Assembly (NCBI GenBank): GCA_963769435.1 | Contig: CAVYLN010000002.1 | Span: 1,201,109 to 1,265,108, forward strand | From: an uncultured Actinomycetota bacterium | Lineage (GTDB): Bacteria > Actinomycetota > Actinomycetes > S36-B12 > UBA10799 | Length of the DNA: 64,000 bases | Direction: 5' to 3' | Shown here: positions 25,911-31,610 of the stretch, piece after piece | Numbering within the stretch: position 1 is the stretch's first letter | Layout: every line of letters begins with the position of its first letter | Position numbers and translations under genes: made by a program | The notes under the pieces: model-generated | The model's database searches: none | What the model was told of the DNA's origin: nothing | The model's input: only the letters and a program-made list of their open reading frames with translations

Positions 25911-26273
25911 ATGCTCGCCGTTGGGACCGACATCGTCCGCGTCTCCCGGCTGGAGAAGTATGCCGACGAGGAACACGACTCGTTCCTCCGGCGGGTGTTC
26001 ACCCCGCGGGAGGTCGACCTTAGCGCCGGCAGAGCCTCGTCGCTGGCAGGTCGCTGGGCGGCCAAGGAGTCCGTGCTCAAGGCGCTGGGCTGCGGCATCG
26101 GTGATGTTCCGCTCACCGACGTGGAGATCATCACCGGCGACGACGGCCGGCCCACGCTCCACCTGCGTGGCCGCGCCGCCGAGTGGGCGCACACGGCCGG
26201 GCTGACCGACTGGCAGGTGTCGATCTCCCACGACGGCGACTACGCCGTGGCGATGGTCGTCGCGTCAGGCTGA
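25911..26273 (+). CDS. acpS: Holo-[acyl-carrier-protein] synthase (4'-phosphopantetheinyl transferase)
   Basis: MLAVGTDIVRVSRLE..., LAGRWAAKESVLKALG, VSISHDGDYAVAMVV are typical AcpS blocks. The 3' end overlaps the convergent ACP gene by 9 nt. Confidence 0.85.
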   Translation: MLAVGTDIVRVSRLEKYADEEHDSFLRRVFTPREVDLSAGRASSLAGRWAAKESVLKALGCGIGDVPLTDVEIITGDDGRPTLHLRGRAAEWAHTAGLTDWQVSISHDGDYAVAMVVASG

Positions 26274-26513
26274 TCCCCGCGCCACCAGGTACGCCACGGC
26301 GGCGTTCACGGAGTCCAACTGGTCGTAGTCGTCCTCGGGGATGTCGGCATCGATGGCCTCGGAGACCGCGGACACGTACGCCAGGAAATCCATCGAGTCG
26401 AGGTCGGCGCCGTCACGCAGCGACGTGCTGGGATCGAACTCGTCGGGGTCGATCTCCGGGGCGACGTCTGCCAGCGCCGCCTGCACGATCTCGCGGGCTT
26501 GGGTCTCATTCAT
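26265..26513 (-). CDS. Acyl carrier protein (stand-alone, 82 aa)
   Basis: Phosphopantetheine attachment motif LDSMDF in an acidic helical protein. ATGA overlap with the E2 stop at 26510..26513. Confidence 0.8.
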   Translation of the reverse strand: MNETQAREIVQAALADVAPEIDPDEFDPSTSLRDGADLDSMDFLAYVSAVSEAIDADIPEDDYDQLDSVNAAVAYLVARGSA

Positions 26514-27857
26514 AGTTCCTCCGGGTTCGTCAGAGCATTGCCGAGTGCCGCCAGGAATCGGGCGCCGGTCCGGCCGTCGGTCGCGCGGTGGTCGGCGGAC
26601 ACCGTCACGGTCACGGTGCTCCGGACGGCCAGTTCACCGTCCACCACCCACGGCCGCTGACCCACGGACCCGATGCCCACGAGCGCCACCTGGGGCGGGT
26701 AGATCACCCCGTACAACAGATCCGGACCGTTGTCGGCGAGGCTGCTCACGGTGATGCTGCCCGGCTGCAACTCGCTGGCGCGAAGCCGCCCGGCCTTGGC
26801 CCGCTTCACCAGATCCGCGAGATGTTTCATCAGTGCGCCGAGGTCGAGGTCCTGCGCACCGACGATGCGCGGGGTGACCAGGCCTCCGGTACGGGTCGCG
26901 ACGGCGACCCCGAGATCGACGTCCTCGGACGCGACGAACTCGTCACGCCACACACCGTTCAGGTCGGGGACCTTCTGAGCCGCCAGCACAGTGGCACGCA
27001 GGAACAGCACTGCCGGGAGCACCCTCTCGCGTGGTTTGCGCCCCGCGTTGTACTCCCGCAGCCAGGCCAGGGTGTCGGTGATGTCGAAGGTGCTGACGAC
27101 GTAGTAGTGAGGGATCTCGCGGGCCGCACGCGCCATCAGAGCCGCCGTCGCCTGGCGCATCGCGGCGGTCCGGTCGACCGACACCTTCGCTTTCGCGGGA
27201 GGCTTCGCGGGCACGTCCGCGCCGGTCACCACCCGACCGCCATCGGCCAGACCGTCGAGTTCCACTCCGCGTTCCCTGGCGAGCCGCCGAGCGCGCGGGG
27301 TGATGCGGGGCCGTGACGGTGGCGAGGACTGGGGCGTGGGCGCAGGGACCGCCGGGGCAGAAGGGGCGCTGGCCGGCGCCGGGGCCTCTTTCGACTCCCC
27401 GGCCGCTGCCAGGACATCCTGACGGGTGATCTGACCGTCGGGACCGGACCCGTGGACGTCGCCGGGCTGGAGACCGAACTGGTGGATGAGGTGGCGGATC
27501 GGCGGGGCCAGGCGCGCCGCGCGGGCGGGTGCCGGCCGTCGGCTCAGCCACGGGCGCCGGTGCGGGTTCCGCCTCGGGGCCGGATGCGGGGGCGGGGTCG
27601 GGTGCGGCGGCCACCTCCGCACCTTCCGCGTCGATGCGGGCCAGCGGAGTGCCGACCGGCACCAGCGTGCCCGGTTCGATCAGCAGTTCGGCGACCACAC
27701 CGCTCTCGAACACCTCGACGTCGATCGCCGACTTGGCGGTGTCGATGACAGCCACCACGTCCCCCTTCGTGACGTGATCACCGGGAGCCACCATCCACTC
27801 CAGCAGAGTGCCCTCGTCCATGTCGGCGCCCAGCGAGGGCATCAGGAACATGCCCAT
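26510..27857 (-). pseudogene. 2-oxoacid dehydrogenase E2 (dihydrolipoamide acyltransferase) with a frameshift in the Ala/Pro linker, about 27480..27560 (or assembly indel)
   Basis: The lipoyl domain ([16 protein letters not shown]...[12 protein letters not shown]) is in the frame of ORF 26943..27857. Two subunit-binding domains and the catalytic domain (SADHRATDG) are in the frame of ORF 26510..27622. Length is 1348 nt. Confidence 0.8.
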
Positions 27858-28849: not shown

Positions 28850-29811
28850 CAGAGCCTCCCCGCCGCAGTGCTGTCCGGGCTGTACACGAACTTCATCAGA
28901 TCGGCGACGTCCTCGTCAGCGGACTCCTCGGCGAATGCGACCGCGTCCTCGACCTCCGCGGCGATCTCGTCCTCCATCTGCTGCACCACCGCGTCGTCGA
29001 GGTCGAGTGCGTTGCGCAACAGGTCGATCGGATCCCGTTCCCGCCACTTCAGCACTTCCTCCTTGTCCCGGTACAACTCCGGGTCGAACATCGAGTGCGC
29101 CCGGAACCGGTACGTGCGGGCCTCCAGGAAGTGCGGACCGCCGCCGGCCCGGATCGCATCCACGGCGCGGGCGGCGGCATCTGCCACGGCCCGCACATCC
29201 ATCCCGTCGACGGTCCACGCCGGCATCTCGTACGCGGACGCCTTGATCGCGAGGTTGGTCTCGGACTCCGACCGGCTCAGGGCCGTGCCCATCGCGTAGA
29301 GGTTGTTCTCGCAGACGAAGAACACCGGCAGGTTCCACAACTGCGCGAGGTTCATCGACTCGTGCCATTCCCCCTCGGCCATCGCCCCTTCGCCGAAGAA
29401 GCACACCGTCACCCGGTCGCGGCCCAGCATCTTGTCCGCGAGCCCCAGTCCGATGGCGGTGGGAAAACCGCCACCCACGATCGCGTTGCCGCCGTAGAAG
29501 CCGTTCTCCTTGTCGAACAGGTGCATGGAACCGCCCCGGCCCCGGCTGCAACCGGTGACCTTGCCGTACATCTCGGCCATGACCTGGCGGGCCGACATGC
29601 CCTTGAGCAAGGCGTGTCCGTGCTCTCGGTAGGTGGCTACGACCGCATCATCGGGGGCCAGCACGGACATCACACCGGTGGCCACCGCCTCCTCGCCTAT
29701 GTACACGTGCAGGAAGCCGCGAATCTTGGTCTGGCTGTACAACTCGACACAACGCTCCTCGAACCGCCGCACGCGCAGCATCGATCGGAGCAATTCCGCG
29801 GAATCGCTCAT
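28849..29811 (-). CDS. 2-oxoacid (pyruvate/acetoin-type) dehydrogenase E1 alpha subunit, TPP-dependent
   Basis: 320 aa. [30 protein letters not shown] and the TPP-binding GDGA-type block [14 protein letters not shown]. The stop overlaps the E1 beta ATG (TGATG). Confidence 0.9.
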
Positions 29812-31610
29812 TTCGAGTCACCTCCGGGTGTCTCCAGCGTGGACAGGTCACCTTCGGGCAACCCGAGTTCGCGCGCCTTCAGCAGGCGCCGCATGATCTT
29901 GCCGCTGCGGGTCTTCGGCAGGTTGTCGGAGAACTCGATCTCGCGCGGCGCCACCGCCGGCCCCAACCTGCGGCGGGCGTGTGCGGTGAGTTCGCGCCGC
30001 AGCGTCTTCGGGTCGTCGTCCACACCCGGCTTCAGCGAGACGAACGCCTTGATCCGTTCACCCATCATCGGGTCCGGGATACCGATCACGCCGGCCTCAG
30101 CGACCCGCGGATCCTCCATCAAGACGCTCTCGACCTCGAACGGCCCGATCAGGTGCCCGGCCGACTTGATCACGTCGTCGGCCCGGCCGACGAACCAGAA
30201 GTACCCGTTCGCATCGCGCTTGGCCAGGTCCCCGGTGAGGTACCAGCCGTCCACGAAGCACTTCTCGTAGCGTGCCTGCTCGTTGAGGTACCCCCGGAAC
30301 ATCGACGGCCAGGGGGTCCGCAGTGCGAGCTCCCCGATCTCGTCGGGTCCCAGTTCCACGACGTGCCCGTCGGGTCCGGCCGCAGCCCTGCCCTCCTCGC
30401 CGCGTTGCAGGACACCAGCGGTGATCCCGGGCATCGGCTGGCCCATGGAACCCGGGTGGACGTCGCAGGCGGCGAAGTTGGCGATCATGATCCCGCCGGT
30501 CTCGGTCTGCCACCAGTTGTCGTGGATCGTCAGGCCGAGCACCTCCCGGCCCCACACGACGGCCTCCGGGTTGAGCGGCTCGCCGACACTGGCCACGAAG
30601 CGCACCCGCGACAGGTCGTACTCCCGCGCGAGCTCGGGTCCGGCCCGCATCAGCATGCGGATCGCGGTGGGTGCGGTGTACCAGATGCTCACCTGCTGTT
30701 CGGCCAGCGTGGAGTACCAGCGGCGGGCGTCGAACTCCCCCTCGTCGACGATCATGGTCAAGCCGTGCGTCAGCGGGGAGATGACCCCGTAGGACATACC
30801 GGTCACCCACCCGGGATCCGCGGTGCACCAGTAGATGTCGTCCGCGTGCAGATCCAGTGCGAAGTGGCCGGTGGCGTAGTGCGCCACGACCGCGCCGTGC
30901 ACGTGCACCGCGGCCTTCGGCGTGCCGGTGGTACCGCTGGTGAAATGCAGGAGCGCCATGTCTTCGGCGCCGGTGGCGACGACCTCGAACTCCTCGGACT
31001 GTCCGGCCAGCAGTTGCGACAGATGCACCGCGCCAGGGATGTCTGACAGGTCCTCGTCGTCGGGGTCGTCGACCAGCAGGATGTGCCGCAACGTGGGCAT
31101 CTCATCACGGACCGGCGCCACCTTCTTGCGGTAGAGCGCCCGGGAGGTCACCATCGCCACCCCGCTGCCGATCACGACCCGCTGGCGTACCGGCTCCGGG
31201 CCGAACGCACTGAACAGCGGCGCGAACACACACCCGGCCTTGAGCGTTCCCAGGATGGCCTCATAGAGCGCCGGGACCCGACCGACAAGGCTGAACACCC
31301 GCTGCCCGGGTTCGACTCCCAAAGCGGCCAGCGCGTTGGCGAACCTGTTGGTGCGGCGGCTGAGTTCCGCGTAGGTGATGTCGGTTCGGCCACGCTTACC
31401 CAGACATCGCAGGGCGACATGCTCACCCCGGCCGTGGACGACGTGCCGGTCGACTGCCTCGTACGCGATGTTCACCCCACCTGCGGGCAGTCCGTCGAGC
31501 CAATCCCCCGCCGCATCCCAGGTGAATTCTGAGCGCACAGCCGCGTAGTCGGCGAGATTCGGTGTGACGGAAAGATCCGCAGCATCCTTGCGGATTACGG
31601 GGAGTTCCAT
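29808..31610 (-). CDS. AMP-forming acyl-CoA synthetase (AcsA-like)
   Basis: AMP-binding signature [11 protein letters not shown], plus [38 protein letters not shown]. Start taken at ATG 31610 (MELPVIRKD). ATGA overlap with the E1 alpha start. Confidence 0.9.

What the first reader, a model, noticed from the sequence alone, without database searches (positions are those of the whole stretch)
25911..31610. 2-oxoacid dehydrogenase E1alpha/E1beta/E2 genes translationally coupled to a dedicated ACP and an AMP-forming ligase
Five minus-strand genes are linked by ATGA/TGATG overlaps or a 5-nt gap. They are acyl-CoA synthetase (31610..29808), E1alpha, E1beta, E2 and an 82-aa ACP (26513..26265, DSMDF site). 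No E3 gene is present. The convergent gene overlapping the ACP 3' end by 9 nt is holo-ACP synthase. Canonical PDH, BCKDH and acetoin dehydrogenase operons do not contain an ACP. A known precedent for E1/E2-type enzymes loading an ACP is the quinocarcin/naphthyridinomycin QncN/QncL/QncM system, which makes glycolicacyl-S-ACP. The E2 here (catalytic DHRATDG retained) may therefore transfer its acyl group to the ACP rather than to CoA, feeding a lipid or natural-product pathway encoded elsewhere. E1beta and E2 carry frameshifts, so the operon may be inactive or mis-sequenced.
Basis: partly seen in the sequence, partly recalled or inferred. Interest (0 to 1): 0.65.

Follow-up and report, generated by a model that had tools for sequence, protein, structure and literature searches.

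The report
Acetate/pyruvate enzyme cassette with own ACP
Five tightly coupled genes (an acetate-activating ligase, a pyruvate-dehydrogenase-type E1/E2 and a small acyl carrier protein) form a cassette that recurs in the same order in bacteria of several phyla, often on plasmids and inside low-oxygen stress islands, and I found no published account of what the carrier protein does there.

Summary
Window 26265-31610 (minus strand) encodes an AcsA-type acetate ligase, PDH-type E1alpha, E1beta and E2, and an 82-aa ACP. The junctions are ATGA, TGATG, a 5-nt gap and ATGA. A convergent AcpS overlaps the ACP 3' end by 9 nt. No E3 was found. E1beta carries three 1-nt insertions and E2 a net +1 shift in its linker. 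Related strains (about 88% DNA identity, assembled separately) have both genes intact, so these are assembly errors or very recent decay.

The ACP is not an accident. The order ACS-E1a-E1b-E2-ACP is kept in about 50 of 63 genome loci found through the ACP, and in all eight plasmid loci inspected. These span Actinomycetota, Alpha-, Beta- and Gammaproteobacteria, Desulfobulbia and Longimicrobium. The E2 stop overlaps the ACP start by 4 nt in at least 36 loci. Three or four Acidimicrobiia loci keep only ACS-ACP.

No NRPS or PKS lies nearby in any locus. Neighbours are USPs, Hsp20, PpsA, PfkB-type kinases, P-type ATPases and DosR/FNR-type regulators. The natural-product reading is therefore not supported. 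My best reading is a mobile module for the pyruvate/acetate node under low oxygen that uses acetyl-S-ACP as a private intermediate. This is inferred, not shown.

The parts
29808..31610 (-). AcsA-type acetate-activating AMP-forming ligase (600 aa)
   Evidence: Pfam AMP-binding plus AMP-binding_C. NF003313 scores 876 bits against a cutoff of 729. It scores 519 bits to PDB 9g79 'acetyl-coenzyme A synthetase'. The acetate-pocket motif NWWQTETGG and the A10 motif PKTRSGK are conserved across the family. The start is supported by the L003 alignment.
28849..29811 (-). PDH-type E1 alpha subunit (320 aa), ATGA overlap with the ACS stop
   Evidence: PF00676. TIGR03182 scores 436 against a cutoff of 394. 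The best solved relative is human PDH E1alpha at 238 bits. The ThDP motif reads GEG...ENN, and this form is conserved in most family members.
27863..28849 (-). E1 beta subunit, interrupted by three 1-nt insertions (about 28623, 27899, 27887); TGATG junction with E1alpha; stop TGA at 27865..27863
   Evidence: The three-frame translation shows the breaks. The reconstructed 326-aa protein scores 405 bits on NF006667. tblastn gives split HSPs in frames -1 and -2. DNA alignments locate the insertions. Orthologues are intact at 327 aa.
26510..27857 (-). E2 dihydrolipoyl acyltransferase (lipoyl domain, two PSBD-like stretches, catalytic domain with DHRATDG), with a net +1 frameshift in the Ala/Pro linker (27540-27521); 5-nt gap after E1beta
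   Evidence: Pfam PF00364, PF02817 (two stretches) and PF00198. The frames are shown and the indels. Orthologues are intact at 427-456 aa. The lipoyl-lysine motif and the C-terminus ...PE(E/A/D)L are conserved.
26265..26513 (-). Dedicated 82-aa acyl carrier protein, Ser in LDSMDF; ATGA overlap with the E2 stop
   Evidence: PF00550 scores 34 bits. All NCBIfam AcpP models score below their cutoffs. The family alignment keeps an invariant D39 S40 D42. At least 7473 cluster representatives belong to the family. The 4-nt overlap with E2 is seen in 36 loci.
25911..26273 (+). Convergent AcpS-type holo-ACP synthase (120 aa), 9-nt 3' overlap with the ACP gene
   Evidence: PF01648 and TIGR00516/TIGR00556 above cutoff. 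Adjacency is conserved only in the window's own clade, L001-L014 and L076-L079. It is absent from distant loci.
25511..25906 (+). DUF302 gene, ending 4 nt before the AcpS start codon and probably co-transcribed with it
   Evidence: tblastn to the L003 DUF302 protein. PF03625 is annotated in the relatives.
31611..31828 (.). Divergent intergenic region upstream of ACS; contains a 20-nt inverted repeat (31697-31716 / 31780-31799) but no DosR-like or FNR-like box
   Evidence: The repeat was found and is not conserved in relatives. Box scans were negative here. No sigma-70 consensus match was found.

Best explanation
The five genes are one member of a widespread, horizontally mobile cassette, acsA-pdhA-pdhB-E2-acp. 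In it, two routes to an acetyl thioester share a small private carrier protein.

Proposed mechanism:
- The E1alpha/beta and lipoylated E2 oxidatively decarboxylate pyruvate. A host E3 supplied in trans re-oxidises the lipoyl arm.
- E2 passes the acetyl group from its lipoyl arm to the phosphopantetheine thiol of the holo-ACP. In this clade the adjacent AcpS would make the holo form.
- The AcsA-type ligase interconverts acetate (plus ATP) and the same acetyl-S-ACP.
- Acetyl units at the pyruvate/acetate node are thereby kept on a protein-bound pool, insulated from the CoA pool.

In most lineages the cassette sits in low-oxygen or dormancy-type stress islands and serves energy and carbon housekeeping in that state. 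The direction of flux (acetate assimilation or acetate plus ATP formation) is open.

What is shown: gene content, catalytic motifs, strict order, translational coupling, distribution and neighbourhood. What is inferred: that the ACP is the acetyl acceptor or donor for E2 and for the ligase, and the physiological role.

In this window, E1beta and E2 are interrupted by indels that are more likely assembly errors than true decay.
For: Conservation of the ACP in the cassette:
- ACS-E1a-E1b-E2-ACP lies on one strand in about 50 of 63 genome loci found through the ACP.
- The same order holds in all eight plasmid loci inspected: Rhodococcus (two species), Cupriavidus, Desulfotalea, Leisingera, Sinorhizobium, Methylocystis and Tropicibacter.
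- The E2 stop overlaps the ACP start by 4 nt in 36 loci.

Link to the ligase:
- L032, L038 and L063 (L064 partial) contain ACS followed directly by the ACP, with no E1/E2. L032 and L038 show the same 4-nt overlap.

Enzymes look active and acetyl-specific:
- ACS passes the acetate-ligase equivalog cutoff and keeps the WWQTETGG pocket and the A10 lysine.
- E1alpha passes the PDH equivalog cutoff, and its nearest solved structure is human PDH.
- E2 keeps the lipoyl lysine and DHRxxDG, and its nearest solved structure is mitochondrial PDH E2.

The ACP is a distinct family:
- It scores below every AcpP cutoff yet has at least 7473 cluster representatives.

Supporting details:
- A lipoate-protein ligase follows the ACP on the Desulfotalea plasmid, so a working lipoyl-E2 matters.
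- Precedent for E1/E2-like enzymes loading a discrete ACP: Qnc/Scl (PMC6335953).

Stress context:
- 26 of 42 distant genome loci of at least 12 kb have a USP, Hsp20, PpsA, P-type ATPase, PRTase/EreA-like or M50+CBS neighbour.
- Seven of the eight plasmid loci have such neighbours. Rhodococcus DK17 has a DosS/DosR-like pair, PfkB, an Rv2632c-like gene, an AAA_33 protein, a USP and otsB.
- GGGAC-N4-GTCCC boxes with at most 1 mismatch lie upstream of ACS in 11 of 57 loci, nine of them between -44 and -74 (the other two near -200). Background is 4% of random windows.
- FNR-like boxes occur in 9 of 57 loci, nearly all proteobacterial, against 6% background.
Against: - No biochemical or genetic data exist for any member that I could find.
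- The ligase is 519 bits from a genuine acetyl-CoA synthetase. It keeps a basic residue where S. enterica Acs has the CoA-binding Arg584 (my reading plus prior knowledge). It may therefore simply make acetyl-CoA.
- E2 is canonical in every motif checked. In classical E2 cores CoA enters from inside the hollow core (established structural knowledge), which would be awkward for a 9-kDa ACP.
- The window's own clade has none of the stress neighbours and no DosR or FNR box. The physiological reading is therefore borrowed from distant relatives.
- The DosR-box signal is absent in Rhodococcus DK17. Some loci that carry the box are related to each other, so they are not independent.
Confidence: 0.5

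Rival explanations
1. This is an ordinary acetyl-CoA-forming PDH plus acetyl-CoA synthetase. Both enzymes use CoA. The ACP is an accessory subunit with another job, such as a regulatory or assembly partner, a sensor of the acetyl/CoA state, or a donor of octanoate for lipoylating E2.
For: - ACS, E1alpha and E1beta pass curated NCBIfam cutoffs for the CoA-dependent enzymes.
- PGAP names them accordingly on plasmids.
- ACS is closely related to B. subtilis-type AcsA.
- E2 motifs are canonical.
Against: - An accessory role does not explain why the ACP stays coupled to ACS alone when E1/E2 are absent.
- The Desulfotalea plasmid brings a lipoate-protein ligase. By established knowledge of LplA, that enzyme uses free lipoate, so an octanoyl-ACP donor is not required there.
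- No LipB or LipA gene was seen in any locus.
- The invariant phosphopantetheine serine argues that the thiol itself is used.
Confidence: 0.25
2. This is a Qnc/Scl-like system. The E1 cleaves a ketose phosphate and E2 loads a glycolicacyl (or other C2) unit on the ACP, for an NRPS/PKS or lipid pathway encoded elsewhere.
For: - The parts list matches SclQ1-4 plus SclP: an E1a-like, an E1b-like and an E2-like protein, a discrete ACP and a PPTase (PMC6335953).
- AcpS is adjacent in this clade.
- PfkB-family sugar kinases are frequent neighbours.
Against: - No NRPS, PKS or condensation enzyme was found in the window or in the flanks of the 63 genome loci and 8 plasmid loci examined.
- The cassette always carries an acetate ligase, which Qnc/Scl lack.
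- E1alpha passes the PDH equivalog cutoff and is nearest to human PDH.
- Neighbours are stress genes.
- The cassette is present in a sulfate reducer's conjugative plasmid and in methanotrophs.
Confidence: 0.05
3. The E1/E2 act on another substrate, such as acetoin (AcoABC-like) or a different 2-oxoacid, rather than pyruvate. The ligase recycles the acid produced.
For: - Acetoin cleavage yields acetaldehyde plus an acetyl unit, and an acetate ligase would fit downstream (inference).
- Sequence similarity cannot fix E1 specificity.
- The E1alpha ThDP motif is an unusual GEG instead of GDG.
Against: - E2 has a true 2-oxoacid_dh catalytic domain. It matches the AcoC model NF011457 only over the lipoyl region (66 bits, cutoff 307).
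- E1alpha exceeds the PDH equivalog cutoff, and BCKDH and other 2-oxoacid E1s score much lower.
- No acetoin-pathway genes (acoR, acoX, butanediol dehydrogenase) were seen nearby.
Confidence: 0.1
4. In this particular genome the E1beta and E2 genes are genuine pseudogenes. Only ACS, E1alpha and the ACP remain functional, heading towards the ACS-ACP-only state seen in some Acidimicrobiia.
For: - Five indel events cluster in 1.1 kb of E1beta/E2, while 12 neighbouring genes are intact.
- A nearby MFS gene is also fragmented.
- Natural ACS-ACP-only loci exist.
Against: - Four of the five events are insertions and all involve only 1-2 bases in G+C-rich runs.
- There are no in-frame stops, and the corrected frames show no excess amino-acid divergence (87-91% identity to L003, like the neighbouring genes).
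- The source is a 2.1-Mb contig. Other long-contig MAG loci show similar split genes: L005/L018, L012, L014, L030, L050.
- Contigs L076-L079, assembled separately from other samples, are intact.
Confidence: 0.35

Closest known systems
QncN/QncL/QncM of quinocarcin biosynthesis and SclQ1-4/SclP of scleric acid biosynthesis (glycolicacyl-S-ACP formation)
   Same: A ThDP-dependent E1-like enzyme and an E2-like protein (lipoyl domain plus acyltransferase domain) work with a discrete small ACP, with a PPTase gene nearby (PMC6335953). This is the only described case I know of E1/E2-type enzymes delivering to an ACP.
   Different: Those systems sit inside NRPS clusters, use ketose phosphates, make a glycolyl unit and have no AMP-forming ligase. 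Here the E1/E2 are PDH-type by curated HMM cutoffs. An AcsA ligase is an invariant member. No NRPS or PKS is near any locus examined. Direct sequence comparison with Qnc proteins could not be done.
Heterotetrameric-E1 pyruvate dehydrogenase complex (PdhABCD / mitochondrial type)
   Same: E1alpha, E1beta and E2 carry a lipoyl domain, a PSBD and a catalytic DHRxxDG. The nearest solved structures are human PDH E1alpha and mitochondrial E2.
   Different: There is no E3 gene in the operon in any locus. An ACP is translationally coupled to E2 and an acetate ligase leads the operon. The E2 C-terminus ends in a conserved ...PE(E/A/D)L, which is shorter than the hydrophobic tail I recall for canonical E2s (plus prior knowledge). 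The E1alpha ThDP motif is mostly GEG. The cassette is plasmid- or island-borne and is probably additional to the host's housekeeping PDH (inferred).
Bacillus subtilis AcsA (acetyl-CoA synthetase, NF003313 family) with AcuA/AcuC control
   Same: About 519 bits to PDB 9g79. The acetate pocket, the A10 lysine and the conserved C-terminal tail are shared. GNAT acetyltransferase genes are frequent neighbours.
   Different: B. subtilis acsA is not linked to E1/E2 or to an ACP (prior knowledge). Here ACS-ACP can even stand alone as a pair.
Acetate:SH-ACP ligases of citrate lyase and malonate decarboxylase (CitC, MadH), and acyl-ACP synthetases
   Same: They are functional analogues for the inferred step, in which an ATP-dependent ligase acetylates the thiol of a dedicated carrier protein (prior knowledge).
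   Different: Those protein families and prosthetic groups are unrelated. Nothing here was tested.
Hypoxia/dormancy gene islands: the M. tuberculosis DosR regulon and the Burkholderia cenocepacia lxa locus
   Same: The neighbour families match: USPs, Hsp20, nitroreductase, PfkB, P-type ATPase, M50+CBS, PRTase-hydrolase, Rv2632c-like and a DosS/R-like pair. The lxa locus likewise combines USPs with acetate/acetyl enzymes, ackA and pta (PMC3721108).
   Different: The lxa paper mentions no pyruvate dehydrogenase, acetyl-CoA synthetase or acyl carrier protein, and M. tuberculosis lacks the cassette as far as I recall. The window's own clade lacks the stress context.

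Membership tests
Acetate--CoA ligase, AcsA type (NCBIfam NF003313) | Whole-protein HMM score above the curated equivalog cutoff | tested here: met
   876 bits against a cutoff of 729.
Acetate--CoA ligase, AcsA type (NCBIfam NF003313) | Acetate-size pocket tryptophan (WWQTETGG) and catalytic A10 lysine (PKTRSGK) | tested here: met
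   Both are present in the window and in nearly all cassette ACSs. Their interpretation rests on S. enterica Acs literature recalled from memory.
Acetate--CoA ligase, AcsA type (NCBIfam NF003313) | CoA is the thiol acceptor | not testable with these tools
   An enzyme assay with CoA versus holo-ACP is needed.
PDH complex with heterotetrameric E1 | E1alpha with a ThDP-binding motif and a score above the PDH E1alpha equivalog cutoff | tested here: met
   TIGR03182 scores 436 against 394. The motif reads GEG...ENN, with Glu in place of the usual Asp.
PDH complex with heterotetrameric E1 | Intact E1beta | tested here: inconclusive
   The domains are present and score 405 bits after reconstruction, but the window has three 1-nt insertions. 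Relatives are intact.
PDH complex with heterotetrameric E1 | E2 with lipoyl lysine, PSBD and catalytic His/Asp (DHRxxDG) | tested here: met
   In the window the reading frame breaks in the linker.
PDH complex with heterotetrameric E1 | E3 (dihydrolipoamide dehydrogenase) encoded with the complex | tested here: not met
   No E3 lies in the window ORFs scanned or in any cassette locus. It is presumably supplied in trans.
Qnc/Scl-type glycolicacyl-ACP system | E1-like enzyme, E2-like enzyme (lipoyl plus acyltransferase) and a discrete ACP encoded together | tested here: met
   The comparison is with the domain list in PMC6335953.
Qnc/Scl-type glycolicacyl-ACP system | Embedded in, or adjacent to, an NRPS/PKS assembly line that consumes the acyl-ACP | tested here: not met
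   None in the window or in the flanks of the 63 genome loci and 8 plasmid loci examined.
Qnc/Scl-type glycolicacyl-ACP system | Ketose phosphate as substrate; closer in sequence to QncN/QncL than to PDH | not tested
The substrate needs an assay.
Acetoin dehydrogenase AcoABC | AcoC-type E2 (NF011457) | tested here: not met
   66 bits against a cutoff of 307, and only the lipoyl region matches.
Acyl carrier protein (PF00550) | PP-binding domain with the conserved serine in a DSxD-type motif | tested here: met
   34 bits against a cutoff of 20.8. D39, S40 and D42 are invariant across phyla.
Housekeeping fatty-acid-synthesis AcpP | Score above the NCBIfam AcpP equivalog cutoffs; location in a fab operon | tested here: not met
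   The best score is 33 bits against cutoffs of 66-106. The gene follows E2, not fab genes.
DosR/FNR-type low-oxygen regulon member | Stress-island neighbours and an operator box upstream | tested here: inconclusive
   Met in many distant loci. Not met in the window or its clade. No expression data were found.

The most novel reading that the evidence does not exclude
The cassette is an ATP-conserving fermentation shunt for non-growing, oxygen-starved cells. Pyruvate is oxidised to acetyl-S-ACP on a private carrier pool that can be kept almost fully acetylated. The AcsA-type ligase then runs backwards: acetyl-S-ACP + AMP + PPi gives acetate + ATP. This would work alongside the frequently adjacent PpsA (PEP + AMP + Pi gives pyruvate + ATP) and PfkB-type kinase. 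Together they would form an AMP-salvaging pathway that plays the part Pta-AckA plays in the Burkholderia lxa island.
Probability: 0.12. Interest if true: 0.9.

Novelty: new variant of a known kind. Interest (0 to 1): 0.72.

Why it matters
PDH complexes and acetyl-CoA synthetase are textbook CoA enzymes. This cassette welds both to a dedicated carrier protein. It is conserved in order and coupling from freshwater actinobacteria to Rhodococcus, rhizobia, Cupriavidus/Burkholderia, roseobacters, a methanotroph and a sulfate reducer, and it is often plasmid-borne. That pattern suggests a route at the pyruvate/acetate node that has not been studied.

If the ACP is the acetyl acceptor, this would be a primary-metabolism counterpart of the Qnc-type E1/E2-to-ACP transfer. 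Its association with DosR-, FNR- and lxa-like islands makes it a concrete, testable candidate for how non-fermenting aerobes manage carbon and energy during hypoxic persistence. Cultured hosts that may be genetically tractable exist (Rhodococcus DK17, Sinorhizobium fredii, Caulobacter, Leisingera), so the question can be tested directly.

Tried and rejected
1. I looked up the exact frameshifted 242-aa E1beta product and the exact E1alpha in the assembly index, to see whether independent assemblies reproduce the frameshift. Neither is on record, so this was uninformative.
2. My first DosR-box scan used the wrong spacing (8-10 nt). It matched 54% of random windows and was discarded. It was redone with GGGAC-N4-GTCCC.
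3. No DosR-like box lies upstream of the Rhodococcus DK17 operon or near the window cassette.
4. The 20-nt inverted repeat upstream of the window ACS is not conserved in relatives. I do not treat it as part of the family's regulation.
5. I tried to infer the thiol acceptor of ACS from CoA-binding arginines. The Arg584 position stays basic. The Arg191/194 loop is absent from the whole AcsA subfamily, including the solved 9g79 protein. This does not discriminate.
6. The B. cenocepacia lxa locus was checked as a possible published home of the cassette. It has ackA and pta instead.
7. Eight literature searches were run: Qnc; DosR plus ACP plus PDH; acetyl-ACP plus E2; the stress-gene set; dormancy-regulon comparative genomics; the lxa locus; FixK; and acsA/pdhA/ACP/USP. 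None found a description of the cassette. The Mesa 2008 paper on the FixK2 regulon is not held.
8. The sigma-70 promoter and terminator scan of 25800-32000 found nothing.
9. An acetoin dehydrogenase identity was considered and rejected on the E2 type.

Full report
OBSERVATION.
- ACS runs 31610..29808 (600 aa). The ATG at 31610 is confirmed by end-to-end alignment with the L003 orthologue.
- E1alpha runs 29811..28849, E1beta 28849..27863, E2 27857..26510 and the ACP 26513..26265.
- AcpS runs 25911..26273 on the plus strand and overlaps the ACP 3' end by 9 nt. A DUF302 gene (25511..25906) ends 4 nt before its start codon.
- The junctions are ATGA, TGATG, a 5-nt gap and ATGA.
- Pfam and NCBIfam give AMP-binding/AMP-binding_C with NF003313 'acetate--CoA ligase' at 876 bits (cutoff 729). 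E1_dh scores 436 on TIGR03182 (cutoff 394). Transket_pyr/Transketolase_C scores 405 on NF006667 (cutoff 321).
- E2 has Biotin_lipoyl, two E3_binding stretches and 2-oxoacid_dh. The ACP has PP-binding at 34 bits, and AcpS has the ACPS domain.
- No E3 and no PKS, NRPS or FAS gene was found among the window ORFs scanned. Syntenic relatives have none within +-10 kb.

FRAMESHIFTS. The comparison uses three contigs assembled separately from other samples (L076-L078, about 88% DNA identity). In these, E1beta is 327 aa and E2 is 445 aa.
- Against them, the window has single extra bases near 28623, 27899 and 27887 in E1beta. The net +3 returns the frame to the original before the stop.
- In the E2 linker it has +2 at 27540-27539 and -1 at 27521.
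- Four of the five events are insertions, and all involve 1-2 bases in G+C-rich runs.
- The corrected frames contain no stop codons and are as similar to L003 (87-91%) as the neighbouring genes. Twelve flanking genes are unbroken.
- The window comes from a 2.1-Mb contig. Several other long-contig MAG loci show comparable split genes.
- I therefore favour assembly or polishing error (about 0.65) over real decay (about 0.35).
- The clustering of the events, and a fragmented MFS gene nearby, keep the pseudogene reading alive. Only reads can settle this.

IS THE ACP REALLY PART OF IT? Yes.
- Proteins related to the ACP form a large family. There were 93 hits with the single sequence and at least 7473 cluster representatives with a cross-phylum profile.
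- Contexts of relatives show ACS-E1a-E1b-E2-ACP with intact genes.
- A scan of species-representative genomes with the ACP motif A[DE]LDSMDF returned 63 loci.
- tblastn with the window proteins shows the same five genes, in the same order and on the same strand, in about 50 of them. These include Nanopelagicales/Micrococcales-type MAGs, Acidimicrobiia, Caulobacter, Brevundimonas, Phenylobacterium, Pseudaeromonas, a gammaproteobacterial MAG and Longimicrobium.
- A tblastn of the ACP against plasmids found 33 records.
- All eight records inspected carry the cassette. They are Rhodococcus DK17 and R. qingshengii, Cupriavidus, Desulfotalea psychrophila, Leisingera, Sinorhizobium fredii, Methylocystis rosea and Tropicibacter.
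- PGAP annotates the genes there as acsA, pdhA, beta subunit, dihydrolipoamide acetyltransferase family and acyl carrier protein.
- The E2 stop and ACP start overlap by 4 nt ((A/G)TGA) in 36 loci, and most of the rest are within 25 nt.
- Outside the five genes, nothing is universally conserved. The cassette therefore behaves as a self-contained, horizontally moving unit.
- Between phyla, ACS is 55-89% identical, E1alpha 56-93% and E1beta 63-91%. I read this as strong purifying selection.

WHAT THE PARTS LOOK LIKE.
- ACS is the B. subtilis AcsA type, at 519 bits to PDB 9g79. The acetate-pocket WWQTETGG and the A10 lysine are conserved throughout.
- The best solved relative of E1alpha is human PDH E1alpha (238 bits). 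BCKDH E1alpha scores about 120.
- The best solved relative of E2 is mitochondrial PDH E2. The AcoC-type model fails, at 66 bits against a cutoff of 307.
- The lipoyl lysine, DHRxxDG and the ACP serine are conserved across the family.
- Two family-specific peculiarities were seen. The E1alpha ThDP motif is mostly GEG rather than GDG. Nearly all cassette E2s end in ...PE(E/A/D)L, which is shorter than the hydrophobic C-terminal tail I recall for canonical E2s.
- The ACP scores far below every housekeeping AcpP cutoff. Its nearest solved relatives are FAS-type and mitochondrial ACPs, at only about 30-40 bits.

THE LIGASE IS TIED TO THE ACP TOO.
- In Acidimicrobiales loci L032, L038 and L063 (L064 partial), ACS is followed directly by the ACP, and no E1/E2 lies in the flanks. 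L032 and L038 show the same 4-nt overlap.
- L022 has a second ACP copy upstream of ACS.
- The simplest reading of this pattern is that the carrier's thiol is a substrate of both ACS and E2.

CONTEXT.
- No natural-product genes were seen next to the cassette in any locus examined.
- In distant loci the recurrent neighbours are tandem USPs, Hsp20, a PpsA-like PEP-utilising enzyme, P-type ATPases, PRTase-hydrolase and erythromycin-esterase proteins, an M50+CBS protease, nitroreductase, SDRs and GNATs.
- 26 of 42 distant loci of at least 12 kb have at least one of these.
- Rhodococcus DK17 pDK1 has ppsA, a PfkB-family kinase, an AAA_33 protein and a GNAT. An Rv2632c-like gene is coupled to acsA. 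The locus also has a USP, a GAF sensor kinase with a response regulator, and otsB. From my knowledge of the M. tuberculosis DosR regulon, this is a close match in family content.
- Leisingera has PfkB, ppsA, a USP, Hsp20, a CBS protein and a Crp/Fnr regulator.
- S. fredii has a USP, Hsp20, BON, DUF2267, FtsH and nicotinate PRTase.
- Tropicibacter has a cytochrome c, a P-type ATPase and a PAS hybrid kinase.
- On the Desulfotalea conjugative plasmid the ACP is followed by a lipoate-protein ligase.
- GGGAC-N4-GTCCC palindromes with at most 1 mismatch lie upstream of ACS in 11 of 57 loci. Nine of them lie between -44 and -74, and the other two lie near -200. The background is 4% of random windows.
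- FNR-like TTGAT-N4-ATCAA boxes lie upstream in 9 of 57 loci, nearly all proteobacterial, against 6% background.
- These signals are suggestive, not proof. DK17 and the window have no such box, and some loci carrying a box are related to each other.
- The window's own clade (L001-L014, L076-L079) has lost this context. It instead keeps AcpS-DUF302 next to the ACP.

MECHANISM.
- Shown: an acetate-specific adenylating ligase, a PDH-type E1/E2 with a functional-looking lipoyl arm, and a phosphopantetheine carrier. They are co-translated in fixed order, mobile between phyla and frequently part of low-oxygen or dormancy-type islands.
- Inferred (confidence about 0.5): acetyl-S-ACP is the shared intermediate. 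It is made from pyruvate by E1/E2, with a host E3, and interconverted with acetate by the ligase. This gives a private acetyl pool insulated from CoA.
- The direction of flux is open.
- The most novel reading (about 0.12) is an ATP-conserving shunt. The ligase would run backwards on acetyl-ACP with AMP and PPi, next to a PpsA running towards pyruvate. This would parallel the ackA-pta pair of the B. cenocepacia lxa hypoxia locus (PMC3721108).
- Main rival (0.25): both enzymes use CoA as usual, and the ACP has an accessory role.
- The Qnc-like natural-product reading is unlikely (0.05), and an acetoin or other substrate has little support (0.1).

COMPARISON WITH THE KNOWN.
- In architecture the closest described system is Qnc/Scl (PMC6335953). 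In sequence the closest are PDH and AcsA.
- The cassette fails the defining context of Qnc (NRPS linkage). It departs from PDH operons by lacking E3 and by carrying the ACP and the ligase.
- Eight full-text searches found no paper describing it. Subscription literature is largely outside that library, so 'undescribed' is provisional.
- I rate it a new variant of a known kind, with interest 0.72. The finding in this window is a possibly mis-assembled member of the family. It points to a widespread, unexplained module of central metabolism that can be tested in cultured hosts.

Noticed in passing
window 31697-31716 and 31780-31799: A 20-nt inverted repeat (95% complementary, 63 nt apart; GTGACGCATAATGCAAAACG / CGTTTTGCATTCTGCGTCAC) lies in the divergent intergenic region upstream of ACS. 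It may be a pair of operator sites. It is not found upstream of ACS in relatives.
   Followed up: partly
window ~20856-21856 (minus strand): The MFS transporter gene that is intact in L003 (554 aa) is fragmented here over three frames, and its N-terminal part is missing. The adjacent 22310-23281 secreted-protein ORF has no counterpart in L003.
   Followed up: partly
window 43825-49107 (+) and 49328-51949 (-): A 1760-aa ORF has no Pfam match at all. It lies next to an 873-aa protein with SpaA-like prealbumin-fold and DUF5979 domains, typical of surface-anchored or pilin-like proteins.
   Followed up: no
window 483-4121 (+): A 1212-aa signalling protein carries about six PAS domains followed by GGDEF and EAL domains.
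   Followed up: no
window 60029-61255 (+); L003 10782-11990; L004 11012-11989: A DUF222/HNH endonuclease gene lies in the window. A gene of the same family is inserted exactly between the ACP and AcpS in L003 and L004, so it looks mobile.
   Followed up: no
window 16604-17545 (-), 17593-18963 (-), 19050-20519 (-): Patatin-like lipase, WS/DGAT wax-ester/triacylglycerol synthase and alpha-amylase-family genes lie 6-9 kb from the cassette. They are syntenic in the whole clade. No functional link to the ACP was tested.
   Followed up: no
L032, L038, L063, L064 (Acidimicrobiales MAGs): These are reduced loci with ACS followed directly by the ACP and no E1/E2. Hsp20, GNAT or USP genes lie next to them.
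   Followed up: partly
L025 5823-7826; L073 6845-8842; L080 4757-6754: In Caulobacter, Leisingera and Tropicibacter, E1alpha and E1beta are fused into one protein of about 665 aa.
   Followed up: no
E2 C-termini in all loci (window 26513-26530): Cassette E2 proteins almost always end in ...LQxPE(E/A/D)L. This is shorter than the hydrophobic C-terminal tail I recall as mediating trimer-trimer contacts in canonical E2 cores. It might affect core assembly.
   Followed up: partly
E1alpha, window ~29380-29400, and all loci: The ThDP/Mg2+ motif reads GEG...ENN (Glu instead of the usual Asp) in most cassette E1alpha proteins. GDG is retained in a few, such as Pseudaeromonas, Cupriavidus and Desulfotalea.
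   Followed up: partly
L072 12336-13346 (Desulfotalea psychrophila large plasmid): A lipoate-protein ligase gene directly follows the ACP on a conjugative plasmid of a strictly anaerobic sulfate reducer. This makes a six-gene portable unit.
   Followed up: partly
L022 2747-2983: A second ACP copy (41% identical to the window ACP) lies upstream of ACS, in addition to the one after E2.
   Followed up: no
L080 8225-8740; L073 1-354: A 'Bacterial hydrolase' gene (PF20603) overlaps the ACP stop in Tropicibacter, and a gene annotated 'hydrolase' lies near the Leisingera cassette. The Tropicibacter protein might be a thioesterase acting on the acyl-ACP.
   Followed up: partly
window E2, residues ~118-151 and ~195-228 (27500-27180): E2 in the window's clade has two PSBD-like (E3_binding) stretches. 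The shorter proteobacterial and Rhodococcus E2s (365-385 aa) have room for only one.
   Followed up: no
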